Shown in pieces: positions 12,001-15,000 of a stretch of DNA of 32,000 nt. This DNA comes from Alkaliphilus oremlandii OhILAs (GTDB lineage Bacteria; Bacillota; Clostridia; Peptostreptococcales; Natronincolaceae): the NCBI RefSeq assembly GCF_000018325.1, contig NC_009922.1, positions 1,080,517 to 1,112,516 on the forward strand, read 5' to 3'. Position numbers: made by a program. How positions within the stretch are numbered: position 1 is the stretch's first letter; the number at the start of each line of letters is the position of its first letter.

Positions 12001-15000
12001 AAGAAGGACAGTGAAGAAGAAACCTTCATTGGGGATCTTATTCCTCAAAATGGGAAAGTGATATTGGTCGTTCCAATAGATTCGGAAGCACCGAAAGGAA
12101 GATTGATTTTGCCACAGGTTCAGCTCATTAGAGATTGTTTAGACCATGGCATCAAGTCCTATGTAGTTCGAGATACGGAATTAGCTTCTGCAATAGAGGA
12201 TTTAGCAGAGATAGATCTTGTAGTTACCGATTCGCAAATATTTAAAAAGGTAGATCAAATAGTGCCAAAGCATATTCCTTTAACCAGTTTTTCTATTCTG
12301 ATGGCTAGGCAGAAAGGGGATTTAAGTGTATTTTTAGAAGGAATTCAAGCCATTGAGAGATTAAAAGAAAGAGAATTCCCTAGAGTTTTAATCATGGAAA
12401 GCTGCTCGCACAACACTTCCCATGAAGATATCGGGAGCGTTAAGATTCCTATGATGTTAAATAAGTATTTAGGAAAACCAATAGATTTTCAATTTAGAAT
12501 GGGAGAAGACTTCCCAAAAAACATAGAAGATTACGATGTGGTCGTTCACTGTGGGTCCTGTATGTTGAACAAAAAAGCCATGGAACATCGAATCAGAATT
12601 TGTAAGTTAAACAATGTACCGCTAACGAACTACGGAATTGTATTGGCTTATTTAACTGGAATATTAGAGCGGTCCGTAAAAATATTCCATCTCAACTTTA
12701 TTTTACCTAAATTTTAAGAAAGTATATTTACAACGGATCTTTTTTAATATATACTGTTGTTGAGTTTATAATCTATAGGAGGGGAAGTAAGTAATGAGAT
12801 TAATTTTTTGCTAATATTAATTTATTTTAAGCACCTGAAATTTTAAGTAGTTTTAAAATTCAGTGCATTATAAAGTTTGTGAACCTAAGGGAACAAATTT
12901 TATCCTTAAATTAATAGATTTTTCAAGAGAGTGGAGGTACCTAAGGACAATTAGGTTGACTTGTTGTACTCTTATTTGAAATTAGCAATTTAGAAGATAC
13001 TTACTGAACTAAAATAGATTATCATAATGGACATTATTTATATTGAGTGCTATAAAATATTTGGAGAACAGGATATTCTATAAGCATTTATAATTCAAAA
13101 TCCCTCTATATTCCATGGGGAGAAGAATTTGCGTATACTCATATTGAATTCTGCCCGTCATCAATTATTGTAATCTGATATTGTATTTTAGACCGTAAGA
13201 AGAACCCATCTTCCTACGGTCTTTTTTTATGACCGAACCCGATTTGCTGAAAGCAAATCGATGGTAGGTCAAACGCAACGAACACCAAATTTGCACGACC
13301 AGAGCAAGTGAACAAATTTGAGCTGTGAGACTGCGACATATACTTAGTAAAGCAGTACCCAATTAAGAAAGACCAATAAATTAGCTAAAATAGTTATGGA
13401 AGTAAACTTCTAAATTGTGAATAGGGACACAAATAATACTGATCGGTGGTGAGCATATGACACCTTTTATAAAGGTAATGGATTTAAATCGATAAACGGG
13501 AGGAGTATACGAAAAGTTTATGATGAATACATTACCAAAAGTAAAAATAGGAAAACTTAATTTTTTCCGTATTCCTTTCCGTAATTTTAAAATTACTGGA
13601 GGTAAGGAATATGGAGAACAGATTAAGATTAACTTGGAATATATACAATGGAGAAATAGCTATAGAAGAGCGGTATTGCCACAATTGTGGAAAGAAAGTT
13701 GAATTTAAGGATTCTCTAAGGAGAAGACAGAATGCAAATGGAAAAAATATATACCATTTTGCAATTTATAAATGCTTAAAAGGCCATTCATGGAATAAAC
13801 AACTAGACATATTTAAAGCAAAACCGGGTCTAGAAAATGACTCTGAAGAATTTTTTGATCAAGAAAGTCAATTTGACGAAATTGTTATAGGGCAATTCAA
13901 GCAAGAGCGGATTACGAATGTAGAAATCTATATGAATACCTTACAGAAAAAAGTAAGAATCGATAAATTTCTATCTTCAAAAATTCAGGATATGACGAGA
14001 GAAAAGATTGTCGATCTCATTAACTTAGGTTTTATAAAAATTAATGATAAAGAGGTAAGGTCGAAAGCCAATTTAAAAGAAAAGGATGTCATAGACTTAC
14101 TCATAAGTGAATTCTAGCAAGGAGGTGCCACAATGGTGAGAGGTCCAATTTTTTGGATTAGATTCAGAGGATAGCACAGAGATTGTGGCTATCCAATAAG
14201 AAAAAGCATTAATTTAAAAAAAAGTAGCCATGATGCTCTGATATTTACCCTCAAACAGTAAGTAGAAGGAGATTATGGATATGAAATTAAATAAATTAGA
14301 AAAAAGTAGAGTATTATTTTCTAAAAACATCGAAATATTTCGATGCGCTATTTGTAAGGATCATATGATGGTAAAGAATAACAATAGTTTGATTTGCAGC
14401 AATGGTCATTGCTTTGATATCTCTAGAAAAGGTTATGTGAATTTAATCAATAGAAGCAGCAATCAAGTTTATAATCAAGAATTGTTTGAAGCCAGAAATA
14501 AAATATACCTTAGGGGCTGCTATGACCCATTAACGAAGGAATTGATTCATTTAATCGAATTGTATCTACCGATGAATCATCAGAAATATATTTTAGATGC
14601 TGGATGTGGAGAAGGATACTATTTAAATCAAATATCTAAAGATAAAAAACTCTATGGTACATCAAACTTTGTAGGCATTGATCTATCAAAGGAAGGTATC
14701 CGTATGGCCACAAGGGGAAATAGCAAGATCCTTTGGTGTATTTCAGATTTAGCAAATATGCCCTTGAAAAGCGATAAAATGGATGTGATATTGAACATAC
14801 TGTCCCCAGCCAATTACGAAGAATTTGTCAGGGTTTTGAAGAAGGATGGCATCGTAATTAAGGTGATTCCAGAACCTCAATATTTAAAAGAAATTCGGGC
14901 ACTTTTAGGGGATCGAATAAAAAGAGACCATTATTCCAATGAAAATGTAATGAGGGTTTTTCAATCGCATTTAGGTTTGATCGCTGAGAAAAAATTGAAC

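What the first reader, a model, noticed from the sequence alone, without database searches (positions are those of the whole stretch)
14119..14278. Unannotated 13-codon leader ORF (MVRGPIFWIRFRG) and an ermC-style four-segment RNA switch in front of the RlmA-family rRNA methyltransferase
**Leader ORF.** A strong SD (AAGGAGGTG, 7-nt spacer) precedes a 13-codon ORF at 14133-14174. It ends in Arg-Phe-Arg-Gly-stop.

**Alternative pairings, read from the sequence.**
- Segment 1 (GGATAGCACA, 14169-14178) contains the last sense codon and the stop. It pairs with segment 2 (TGTGGCTATCC, 14184-14194).
- Segment 2 (CAGAGATTGTGGC, 14177-14189) can instead pair over 13 bp with segment 3 (GCCATGAT-g-CTCTG, 14227-14240).
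- Segment 3 (CCATGAT-g-CTCT) can pair with GGAGATTATGG (14268-14278), which holds the rlmA SD and start codon.

**Mechanism.** This is the classic erm translational-attenuation geometry. A ribosome arrested with Phe in the P site and Arg in the A site (14163-14168) would cover segment 1. Pairing 2:3 would then form and free the SD.

**Why an antibiotic signal is plausible.** Arg/Lys-x-Arg/Lys is the established macrolide-dependent arrest motif, as in ErmDL ...MRLR. RlmA(II)/TlrB-type G748 methylation is an established macrolide (tylosin) resistance determinant.
Basis: partly seen in the sequence, partly recalled or inferred. Interest (0 to 1): 0.85.

Follow-up and report, generated by a model that had tools for sequence, protein, structure and literature searches.

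The report
Antibiotic-sensing leader switch before rRNA methyltransferase
A short upstream peptide and a refolding RNA appear to switch on a ribosome-modifying resistance gene when a macrolide-type antibiotic stalls the ribosome; this kind of device is already known, but this conserved clostridial version, also found before hflXr and mef-like genes, is not in Rfam or the literature I could search.

Summary
The SD, the 13-codon ORF MVRGPIFWIRFRG-stop (14133-14174) and all three pairings (1:2, 2:3, 3:4) are at the stated coordinates.

They are not chance:
- Nineteen non-redundant copies from Alkaliphilus, Peptostreptococcaceae (including C. difficile) and metagenomes keep a leader ending [aromatic/S]-[I/T/M/L/V]-R-x-R-[G/K/E]-stop.
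- Both competing folds are kept, with compensatory changes in 2:3, 3:4 and 1:2.

A second copy lies in the window before hflX (leader 15202-15246, MIIRVATYFIRIRK-stop). That HflX is closest to Listeria HflXr. A relative has three copies, before a Mef(A)-like pump, rlmA and hflX.

The principle is known. B. subtilis tlrB (RlmA-II) is induced by tylosin-dependent arrest at an RYR leader (Yakhnin 2019). Listeria hflXr and mef(E) use RLR leaders.

This RNA differs:
- It has the erm-style side-by-side geometry and no terminator.
- An extra sense codon follows RxR, so the 2019 survey's regex would have missed it.

Caveats:
- Equilibrium folding does not flip the window copy (OFF favoured by about 9-11 kcal/mol). 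Only a co-transcriptional snapshot does.
- The real start codon is probably ATG 14281.
- Drug dependence is inferred.

Verdict: a real element and a new member of a known kind, of moderate interest.

The parts
14119..14127 (+). Shine-Dalgarno of the leader ORF (AAGGAGGTG). It starts 2 nt after the stop codon of the upstream S4-domain gene.
   Evidence: A strong SD is present before the leader in all 17 full copies.
14133..14174 (+). Leader ORF MVRGPIFWIRFRG-stop: 13 sense codons plus TAG.
   Evidence: The C-terminal core [aromatic/S]-[I/T/M/L/V]-R-x-R-[G/K/E]-stop is conserved.
14160..14168 (+). R-F-R (+x+) putative arrest motif. The predicted arrest has Phe 14163-14165 in the P site and Arg 14166-14168 in the A site.
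   Evidence: The motif is conserved in 19 copies. The arrest position is inferred by analogy with the RYR toeprint in PMC6851288.
14169..14178 (+). Segment 1 (GGATAGCACA): the last sense codon, the stop codon and 4 more nt. It is the 5' arm of the 1:2 hairpin.
   Evidence: 91-96% of cells paired; covarying pairs appear once the hflX and mef copies are included.
14177..14194 (+). Segment 2 (CAGAGATTGTGGCTATCC). It pairs either with segment 1 or with segment 3.
14195..14223 (+). A/T-rich linker of variable length, which forms the loop of the 2:3 helix.
   Evidence: Its length ranges from about 12 to about 75 nt among the copies and its sequence is not conserved.
14224..14240 (+). Segment 3 (GTAGCCATGATGCTCTG). 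It pairs either with segment 2 (ON) or with segment 4 (OFF).
14242..14264 (+). Small hairpin nested inside the 3:4 helix.
   Evidence: A hairpin at the equivalent position (CTATTTAA...TTAAATAG) occurs in the other copies.
14268..14278 (+). Segment 4 (GGAGATTATGG): the methyltransferase SD (GGAG 14268-14271) plus the spacer, which contains a probably non-initiating ATG at 14275.
   Evidence: The equivalent ATG is out of frame in L088, L089, L090 and L173.
14281..15159 (+). RlmA-family 23S rRNA methyltransferase (TlrB/RlmA-II-like). The probable start is ATG 14281. The ORF can also be read from 14275.
15187..15197 (+). SD of the second leader (AAGGAGGGGAG).
15202..15246 (+). Second leader ORF MIIRVATYFIRIRK-stop, with R-I-R at 15232-15240.
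15220..15374 (+). Second copy of the four-segment RNA. Segment 1 is 15241-15251, segment 2 is 15257-15265, segment 3 is 15306-15324, and segment 4 with the SD is 15353-15363.
   Evidence: Covariance model R1 scores it at 78.2 bits, E about 4e-16. Its MFE fold has 1:2 and an SD-sequestering 3:4.
15366..16616 (+). HflXr-type GTPase gene. The ORF can be read from 15360, and the second ATG at 15366 is the probable start.
   Evidence: TIGR03156, 447 bits; the best PDB match is 8A57_D at 420 bits, against about 250 bits for housekeeping HflX; 8A57 is L. monocytogenes HflXr.

Best explanation
The element is a leader-peptide translational attenuator that couples expression of a TlrB/RlmA(II)-like 23S rRNA methyltransferase to drug-induced ribosome arrest.

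**Without drug (inferred).** Ribosomes translate the 13-codon leader and terminate at the UAG that lies inside segment 1. The local 1:2 hairpin then re-forms. Segment 3 is left to pair with segment 4, which buries the methyltransferase SD and spacer, so the gene is OFF.

**With drug (inferred).** With a tunnel-bound macrolide-type drug, the ribosome arrests at the +x+ motif R-F-R, with Phe in the P site and Arg in the A site. Its footprint covers segment 1. Segment 2 is therefore free when segment 3 emerges from the polymerase, and 2:3 forms. Segment 4 stays single-stranded and the gene is translated.

**Kinetic, not equilibrium.** In this copy the OFF fold is the more stable one with or without the ribosome footprint, so the switch must act co-transcriptionally.

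**Wider use.** The same cassette, duplicated, controls the adjacent hflXr gene in this window. In relatives it also controls a Mef(A)-like pump. Together these form a small drug-inducible resistance regulon.

**What is shown.** The sequence features, the alternative pairings, their conservation and covariation, the gene identities and the footprint geometry.

**What is inferred.** Translation of the leader, drug-dependent arrest, which drug acts, the direction of regulation and the G748 specificity.
For: **Anatomy and folding.**

**Conservation of the leader.** The leader recurs across diverged loci with different neighbouring genes.

**Covariation.**
- 2:3 helix: 94% paired, 4 covarying pairs, 0 of 500 shuffles, slid controls 29-48%.
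- OFF fold: 93% paired, 6 covarying pairs.
- Four-segment chain of linked changes: C-G-C-G versus T-A-T-A.

**Co-transcriptional snapshot.** With the transcript ending just before the SD, the free RNA has 1:2 = 10 bp and 2:3 = 0 bp. With the ribosome stalled, 2:3 = 14 bp. In 10 of 11 copies 2:3 forms when the ribosome is stalled.

**Other copies.**
- A second copy precedes hflX.
- Further copies precede HflXr-type and Mef(A)-like genes.

**Specificity.** Only two such ORFs exist in the window.

**Experimental precedents.**
- tlrB of B. subtilis is induced by tylosin-dependent arrest at RYR, with Tyr in the P site and Arg in the A site (PMC6851288).
- Listeria hflXr is controlled by an RLR leader (PMC6310831).
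- mef(E) is controlled by the leader MTASMRLR (PMC4335068).
- The +x+ motif is described in PMC12583479.

**Leader families upstream of RlmA homologues.** Related leaders are widespread: MIIQFIR[YL]R in Bacilli and MTA[HY]MRLR in gut Clostridia.
Against: **Equilibrium folding does not predict induction.**
- In the window copy, opening the RBS costs 9.3 kcal/mol in the free RNA and 10.6 kcal/mol with the footprint. The constrained MFE keeps 3:4.
- Across copies the free-minus-stalled difference ranges from -1.5 to +3.5 kcal/mol.
- In most copies other than the window's, the truncated free RNA already prefers a long (1+2):(3+) hairpin that contains 2:3. The OFF pathway there rests on kinetics that I could not model.

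**No expression data.** No transcription start was identified. The leader SD abuts the upstream gene and no promoter-like site lies between them. There are no expression, toeprint or ribosome-profiling data.

**Target base unproven.** G748 versus G745 specificity is not established. The best NCBIfam hit is the G745 model, and it scores below its cut-off.
Confidence: 0.75

Rival explanations
1. The RNA switch is the same, but it is a general sensor of translation stress or responds to a different drug class (for example lincosamides, streptogramins, pleuromutilins or ketolides) rather than specifically to tylosin or other macrolides. Any slow-down at the end of the leader would keep segment 1 covered.
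For: - Listeria rli80-hflXr, which has an RLR leader, is induced by lincomycin as well as by erythromycin.
- The B. subtilis RYR leader responds to tylosin but not to erythromycin, so the motif alone does not fix the specificity.
- The cassette also precedes HflXr, which protects against lincosamides (abstract of PMC9638945).
Against: - The strictly conserved part of the peptide is the +x+ motif with a preceding aromatic and aliphatic pair. That is the signature of macrolide-dependent arrest.
- One of the regulated genes is a Mef(A)-like macrolide pump.
Confidence: 0.15
2. The element is a transcription attenuator like the B. subtilis tlrB leader. The 2:3 hairpin would be a weak, factor-dependent terminator, and the stalled ribosome would disrupt its base.
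For: - The 2:3 helix starts right after the leader stop codon, which is the position of the Bacillus terminator hairpin.
- The stalled footprint would overlap its first 2-3 bp, as in B. subtilis.
- A short U-rich stretch (AUAUUUA) follows segment 3.
Against: - No terminator-like site is found in the leader.
- The U-stretch is interrupted and is itself part of the conserved inner hairpin.
- The conserved 1:2 hairpin would act as an antiterminator in the absence of drug, which gives the wrong regulatory sign.
- The 3:4 SD-sequestering helix is conserved and covaries.
Confidence: 0.05
3. The element is a protein-binding autoregulatory site, in the way ErmC binds its own mRNA, or is some other structured RNA. 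The short ORF would then be incidental.
For: The RNA is highly structured (z = -3.85). Methyltransferases that recognise rRNA hairpins can bind mimics in their own mRNA (established knowledge for ErmC, recalled from memory).
Against: - The same cassette precedes three unrelated proteins: a methyltransferase, a GTPase and an MFS pump.
- The reading frame, the SD and the RxR-x-stop ending are kept while the N-terminal length and sequence vary.
- Two mutually exclusive folds are both conserved.
Confidence: 0.03
4. The features are chance, or the 1:2 hairpin is merely the terminator of the upstream S4-domain gene.
For: The hairpin lies about 50 nt after the upstream stop codon, and AT-rich genomes carry many short ORFs.
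Against: - No U-tract follows the hairpin.
- The element occurs behind different upstream genes.
- Nineteen copies show covariation.
- There are only two such ORFs in 64 kb of sequence, against 0.5 expected.
Confidence: 0.01

Closest known systems
B. subtilis tlrB (yxjB) leader: tylosin-dependent arrest at the RYR leader peptide (Yakhnin et al. 2019, PMC6851288)
   Same: - The downstream gene family is the same. The window protein is 40% identical (229 bits) to the Bacillus swezeyi orthologue that carries the identical MIIQFIRYR leader.
- Both have a short leader with its own SD, and the peptide core is similar (F-I-R-Y-R versus W-I-R-F-R).
- The distance from the leader stop to the gene start is similar, about 100 nt.
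- In both, the SD is sequestered in the uninduced state.
   Different: - The RNA architecture differs. In Bacillus the leader ORF pairs directly with the SD region and encloses a NusA-dependent terminator with a U-tract, a nested 1(2:3)4 layout. Here there are side-by-side 1:2 and 3:4 hairpins with a competing 2:3, and no terminator.
- An extra sense codon (G, K or E) lies between RxR and the stop. The published survey regex [K|R].[K|R]$ would therefore not have captured this class.
- Model R1 finds no match in the Bacillus loci.
erm-type translational attenuators (the ermC/ermD paradigm)
   Same: - Leader ORF with its own SD.
- Four segments with 1:2 and 3:4 competing against 2:3.
- The SD of the resistance gene lies in segment 4.
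- The arrest site is placed so that the stalled ribosome covers segment 1.
- The +x+ motif matches Erm(D)L MTHSMRLR.
   Different: - The regulated genes are an RlmA-family methyltransferase, an HflXr-type GTPase and a Mef-like pump, not an Erm A2058 methylase.
- There is no sequence relationship to erm leaders, and Rfam gives no hit.
- The stop codon of the leader lies inside segment 1.
Listeria monocytogenes rli80-hflXr attenuator (Duval et al. 2018, PMC6310831)
   Same: The second copy in the window precedes an HflXr-type gene. It encodes a 14-aa leader with an R-x-R motif, matching the published 14-aa RLR leader in length and motif.
   Different: The Listeria element works by transcription termination and antitermination. 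The window element has no terminator and instead sequesters the SD.
mef(E)/mel leader Mef(E)L, MTASMRLR (Chancey et al. 2015, PMC4335068)
   Same: In L088 the cassette precedes a Mef(A)-like pump. The arrest-motif class is the same. Gut-clostridial RlmA homologues carry near-identical MTA[HY]MRLR leaders.
   Different: mef(E)/mel is controlled by transcription attenuation with a Rho-independent terminator. Its leader sequence and RNA are unrelated to the window element.

Membership tests
erm-type leader-peptide translational attenuator (mechanistic class) | A short leader ORF with its own SD immediately upstream of the regulated gene | tested here: met
erm-type leader-peptide translational attenuator (mechanistic class) | Four RNA segments with mutually exclusive pairings (1:2 and 3:4 versus 2:3), each maintained in evolution | tested here: met
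   93-94% of cells paired, covarying pairs in all helices, slid controls 29-52%.
erm-type leader-peptide translational attenuator (mechanistic class) | The SD or start of the regulated gene is sequestered by segment 3 in the default fold | tested here: met
   Mean unpaired probability of the RBS is 0.17 in the window copy.
erm-type leader-peptide translational attenuator (mechanistic class) | Occupying the arrest site shifts the RNA to the SD-open fold | tested here: inconclusive
   Not at equilibrium. It does shift in a co-transcriptional snapshot truncated before the SD.
erm-type leader-peptide translational attenuator (mechanistic class) | Drug-dependent ribosome arrest on the leader | not testable with these tools
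   Needs toeprinting, Ribo-seq or reporter assays.
Macrolide +x+ (R/K-x-R/K) arrest peptides | An R/K-x-R/K motif positioned as the P-site and A-site pair at the arrest point | tested here: met
   R-F-R lies at 14160-14168 and R-x-R is kept in all 19 copies. Arrest itself was not tested.
Bacillus tlrB/yxjB leader (Yakhnin 2019) | The downstream gene is an RlmA(II)/TlrB orthologue (G748 methyltransferase) | tested here: inconclusive
   The protein is RlmA-family with the Zn ribbon. It scores 229 bits to the Bacillus TlrB orthologue against 105 bits to E. coli RlmA(I). The target base cannot be read from the sequence here.
Bacillus tlrB/yxjB leader (Yakhnin 2019) | [quoted passage not shown] | tested here: not met
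   One extra sense codon (G, K or E) precedes the stop in all copies.
Bacillus tlrB/yxjB leader (Yakhnin 2019) | An intrinsic (NusA-dependent) terminator between the leader ORF and the gene | tested here: not met
   No terminator-like site lies in 14119-14281. Bacillus-type loci show a hairpin followed by a U-tract.
Bacillus tlrB/yxjB leader (Yakhnin 2019) | The leader ORF pairs directly with the tlrB SD region | tested here: not met
   Here the SD pairs with the local segment 3. The Bacillus-type nested hairpin is seen.
Bacillus tlrB/yxjB leader (Yakhnin 2019) | A NusG-dependent RNA polymerase pause that synchronises transcription and translation | not tested
   No pause prediction was attempted, and the kinetic model proposed here would benefit from one.
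Listeria rli80-hflXr attenuator | Terminator and antiterminator alternatives controlled by an RLR leader | tested here: not met
   The second copy (15187-15374) has an R-I-R leader but no terminator. It forms an SD-sequestering helix instead.
Any Rfam family | A match at or near the gathering score | tested here: not met
   Only two T-box leaders elsewhere in the window reach gathering. In 14050-15450 the best sub-threshold hits are 20-23 bits, against gathering scores of 45-55.

The most novel reading that the evidence does not exclude
A single conserved RNA cassette (an R-x-R-x-stop leader plus four segments) has been duplicated in front of several unrelated resistance genes: a Mef(A)-like pump, a TlrB-like methyltransferase and HflXr. 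The copies occur in Alkaliphilus and in Peptostreptococcaceae, including C. difficile. Together they would form a previously unrecognised, co-induced intrinsic macrolide-response regulon in anaerobic Firmicutes. The invariant extra codon and the UAG would be dual-use sequence: they are both coding and the 5' arm of the 1:2 hairpin, and they set the ribosome footprint exactly on segment 1.
Probability: 0.5. Interest if true: 0.55.

Novelty: new member of a known kind. Interest (0 to 1): 0.45.

Why it matters
- **Extends a known circuit.** The one experimentally dissected regulatory circuit for RlmA(II)/TlrB would extend from Bacilli to anaerobic Clostridia, through a different, erm-like RNA design.
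- **Shows modular reuse.** The same sensor is placed before HflXr and Mef-like genes, so it predicts a drug-inducible intrinsic resistance regulon.
- **Reaches C. difficile.** A copy sits before the C. difficile rlmA homologue (L005, record OX246690.1). This gives a directly testable hypothesis about inducible tolerance to macrolides or tylosin in a clinically and agriculturally relevant organism.
- **Exposes a survey blind spot.** Published surveys that required R/K-x-R/K to be the last three residues miss this class of leader.
- **Offers a model system.** Both competing folds covary, so the cassette is a compact natural system for studying kinetic (co-transcriptional) rather than equilibrium RNA switching.

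Tried and rejected
1. **Equilibrium switch.** Constrained MFE and partition-function calculations with several footprint positions did not open the RBS in the window copy. I rejected a purely thermodynamic switch and kept a kinetic one.
2. **Transcription attenuation.** No terminator is present, and the regulatory sign would be wrong given the conserved 1:2 hairpin.
3. **Homology to the Bacillus tlrB leader RNA.** Folding of L011, L026 and L008 shows a nested architecture containing a terminator. Model R1 finds no hit in any Bacillus, Paenibacillus or Brevibacillus locus. Only the peptide motif and the gene family are shared.
4. **Rfam.** Nothing at gathering or near it.
5. **Plasmid collection.** No match to the element.
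6. **Metagenome scan for more clade members.** It returned mostly distant gut Clostridia and only two useful loci, L091 and L092.
7. **Contig look-up for P0046 (Romboutsia).** It found nothing.
8. **Supplementary figures of the 2019 paper.** The list of 180 leaders is held only as images, so I could not check whether any clostridial leader is listed.
9. **Literature searches for the clostridial or C. difficile element.** No description was found. This covers only the open-access library available here.
10. **MKNL-type upstream ORF in the window.** None is present.
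Full report
**1. The observation**

- AAGGAGGTG lies at 14119-14127.
- ATG 14133 opens the ORF MVRGPIFWIRFRG, and TAG is at 14172-14174.

The 177-nt leader folds to -42.6 kcal/mol, with z = -3.85 and 0 of 200 shuffles folding as well. The fold contains:
- the 1:2 hairpin (14169-14178 with 14184-14194);
- a 3:4 helix (14228-14239 with 14268-14278) that buries GGAG 14268-14271;
- a small hairpin nested inside 3:4 (14242-14264).

The 2:3 pairing (14177-14189 with 14227-14240) is exactly as written. It appears when the RBS is forced open or the transcript is truncated.

A scan of the whole window on both strands looked for short ORFs with a strong SD that end in +x+ with at most one further residue. 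It finds exactly two: this leader and a second one at 15202-15246. The shuffled mean is 0.5.

**2. Surroundings**

- **Downstream gene.** The ORF at 14275/14281-15159 is an RlmA-family 23S rRNA methyltransferase with the RlmA zinc ribbon.
- **Similarity.** It is 40% identical (229 bits) to the Bacillus swezeyi orthologue of TlrB, against 105 bits to E. coli RlmA(I), PDB 1P91.
- **Upstream gene.** A 168-aa protein with a weak S4-domain match ends 2 nt before the leader SD.
- **Promoters and terminators.** No promoter-like site lies between the two genes, and no terminator-like site lies in the leader.
- **Further downstream.** An hflX gene follows at 15360/15366-16616.

**3.

I fetched loci for methyltransferase homologues from 97% down to about 48% identity. 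The leader and all four segments recur behind different upstream genes.

| Locus | Organism or source | Leader peptide |
|---|---|---|
| WIN, L001, L002 | window and close relatives | MVRGPIFWIRFRG |
| L003 | Alkaliphilus sp. B6464 | M(M)GCRGCIYYIRLRG |
| L085 | metagenome | MRGIRGPIYYIRLRG |
| L088, L089 | metagenome | MNRGPVYFIRLRG |
| L005 | C. difficile | MNKRAFIYYTRIRG |
| L092 | metagenome | MLAYIRLRG |
| L171 | Terrisporobacter | MSIFAYLRWRG |
| L172 | Intestinibacter | MTYIRLRG |
| L173 | metagenome | MSIYAYMRLRG |

The N-terminus varies in length and sequence. The C-terminus is [aromatic/S]-[I/T/M/L/V]-R-x-R plus one residue plus stop.

**4. A second copy in the window, and a modular cassette**

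The rlmA-hflX spacer holds another strong SD (15187-15197). The ORF MIIRVATYFIRIRK-stop (15202-15246) follows, and then the same four segments ending at the hflX SD.

A covariance model built from the rlmA-associated copies detects it independently at 78.2 bits, E about 4e-16. It folds the same way.

The model finds 19 non-redundant copies in the fetched loci.
- Copies precede both rlmA and hflX in L001, L002, L088 and L173.
- L091 has a copy before an hflX-like gene.
- L088 has a third copy before an MFS pump that scores 361 bits against the Mef(A) model.

The window's HflX matches PDB 8A57_D at 420 bits, against about 250 bits for housekeeping HflX structures. 8A57 is the L. monocytogenes HflXr-50S complex. 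All three regulated gene types are therefore linked to macrolide or lincosamide resistance.

**5. Covariation**

| Alignment | Structure | Cells paired | Pairs with double-sided change | Controls |
|---|---|---|---|---|
| A4 (MAFFT, 13 sequences) | 2:3 helix, 15 pairs | 93.8% | 4 | 0/500 shuffles; slid 29-50% |
| A4 | 3:4 | 96% | 2 | - |
| A4 | 1:2 | 96% | 0 (wobble changes only; 5' arm is coding) | - |
| A5 (19 copies, fitted to OFF fold only) | 2:3 | 94% | 4 | 0/500 shuffles; slid 29-48% |
| A5 | OFF fold | 93% | 6, of which 3 are in 1:2 | - |

Because A5 is fitted only to the OFF fold, the fit does not favour 2:3.

One chain of columns links all four segments: segment 1 c28, segment 2 c46, segment 3 c115 and segment 4 c178. 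It reads C-G-C-G in the window's rlmA copy and T-A-T-A in its hflX copy. Every intermediate state is compatible with pairing. Both mutually exclusive folds are therefore under selection.

**6. Start codon**

In L088, L089, L090 and L173 the ATG inside segment 4 is out of frame with the gene. The conserved ATTATGR is therefore an RNA element. The initiator is the next ATG or GTG, 9-10 nt after GGAG. In the window that is 14281, and for hflX it is 15366.

**7. Mechanism**

*Geometry.* In B. subtilis the tylosin toeprint lies 17 nt 3' of the first base of the P-site Tyr codon. Scaled to this window, with Phe 14163 in the P site, the ribosome edge falls at about 14178-14179. That covers segment 1 and leaves the core of segment 2 free.

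*Equilibrium.* The window copy does not flip.
- Opening the RBS costs 9.3 kcal/mol in the free RNA and 10.6 kcal/mol when stalled.
- The constrained MFE keeps 3:4.
- Across copies the free-minus-stalled difference is -1.5 to +3.5 kcal/mol.
- The reason is that the footprint also removes the lower half of a long alternative hairpin, (1+2):(3+), which RNAalifold picks as the consensus.

*Kinetics.* I folded each transcript truncated just before the SD.
- In the window copy the free RNA keeps 1:2 (10 bp, with no 2:3 pairs). With the footprint, 2:3 forms (14 bp).
- 2:3 forms in 10 of 11 copies when the ribosome is stalled.

I therefore favour a co-transcriptional erm-type switch. The B. subtilis model likewise depends on synchronising transcription with translation. 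Drug dependence, the identity of the inducer and the direction of regulation remain inferences.

**8. Comparison with what is known**

- **B. subtilis tlrB.** Yakhnin et al. 2019 showed that tlrB/yxjB (RlmA-II) is induced by tylosin-dependent arrest at the RYR end of the leader MIIQFIRYR. Induction also involves a NusA-dependent terminator, an SD-sequestering hairpin and a NusG-dependent pause.
- **Spread of that leader type.** I found it (MIIQFIR[YL]R and variants) upstream of RlmA homologues in many Bacillus, Paenibacillus and Brevibacillus genomes. Counting all leader-like ORFs, 33 of 85 forward-strand regions have a hit, against 2 on the reverse strand.
- **A third class.** MTA[HY]MRLR occurs upstream of RlmA homologues in human-gut contigs. 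It resembles Mef(E)L MTASMRLR and Erm(D)L MTHSMRLR.
- **RNA architecture.** The Bacillus RNA is built differently: the leader ORF pairs directly with the SD and encloses a terminator. Model R1 does not match those loci.
- **Survey blind spot.** The 2019 survey used the regex [K|R].[K|R]$, which cannot capture R-x-R-G-stop leaders.
- **Listeria hflXr.** It is controlled by a 14-aa RLR leader through transcription attenuation.
- **Databases and literature.** Rfam has no family for this element. Literature searches found no description of it.

**9. Verdict**

The qualifications are:
- the switch is kinetic rather than thermodynamic;
- the start codon is probably 14281;
- the regulatory principle was already established for this gene family.

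The element is a new member of the class of leader-peptide attenuators of macrolide-resistance genes. It has an erm-like, translation-only design and an extra post-motif codon, and it is reused modularly before tlrB-like, hflXr-like and mef-like genes, including in C. difficile.

Noticed in passing
window 15187-15374 (leader ORF 15202-15246), before hflX 15360/15366-16616: A second, paralogous copy of the leader-plus-four-segment switch (MIIRVATYFIRIRK-stop) sits directly before an HflXr-type GTPase gene. The model built from the rlmA copies finds it independently at 78 bits.
   Followed up: yes
L088 990-1125, 2392-2509, 3420-3552: Three tandem copies of the cassette in one contig. They precede a Mef(A)-like MFS pump (leader MLIYGGIASVRLRG), rlmA and hflX (leader MRGPVYYIRIRE). 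L173, L001, L002 and L091 also have copies before hflX-like genes.
   Followed up: partly
L003 2638-2700 with hairpin and U-run near 2745-2800; L089 2197-2271; L171 1211-1297; L173 1224-1292: In four relatives a further conserved small ORF (MKNL..., 20-28 aa) lies between a promoter-like site and the RxR-G leader. A stable hairpin with a U-run follows it, and the promoter-like site in L003 (2570-2598) matches 11 of 12. This could be a first-stage transcription attenuator in tandem with the translational switch. It is absent from the window.
   Followed up: partly
L105-L114 and L127 (human-gut metagenome contigs), about 58-60 nt before RlmA homologues: Eight-codon leaders MTAHMRLR and MTAYMRLR lie upstream of RlmA-family genes in gut Clostridia. 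They are nearly identical to the Mef(E)/Msr(A)/Erm(D) leader class (MTASMRLR, MTHSMRLR). This is a third leader class for this gene family.
   Followed up: partly
window 14275 versus 14281 (and 15360 versus 15366): The first ATG of each gene lies inside segment 4 and only 3 nt after GGAG. The equivalent ATG is out of frame in L088, L089, L090 and L173. Gene callers are probably starting these genes two codons too early, and about ten codons too early in L173.
   Followed up: yes
window 13611-14117: A 168-aa protein with an N-terminal Cys/His-rich region and a weak C-terminal S4 RNA-binding domain ends 2 nt before the leader SD, with no promoter-like site between them. It is also present in L001 and L002 but not in other relatives. 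It may be co-transcribed and ribosome-related.
   Followed up: partly
window 12794-12814 and 12833-12868; terminator-like hairpin near 13192-13230: A six-codon ORF (MRLIFC-stop) with a strong SD (TAGGAGGGGAAG) lies just after hydF and is followed by a long A/T-rich hairpin. About 400 nt of apparently non-coding sequence then ends in a hairpin with a T-run. No Rfam match. The function is unknown.
   Followed up: no
window 21147-21417 and 25422-25672: Two T-box leaders on the + strand (Rfam RF00230, 111 and 125 bits).
   Followed up: no
L091 1200-1480; L172 1455-1515: In L091 the rlmA leader is replaced by repeated, structured sequence, and only the last part of the RBS region is left, which looks like an insertion or rearrangement. 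In L172 the RBS and start region (AAGGAGATTATGAACAATGAAAAAATTAAA) is tandemly duplicated.
   Followed up: no
window 14328-14345: A terminator-like hairpin with a weak T-run lies about 50 nt inside the methyltransferase coding region. It is the only such hit in 13300-15500 and is at the level expected by chance (0.8 expected).
   Followed up: no
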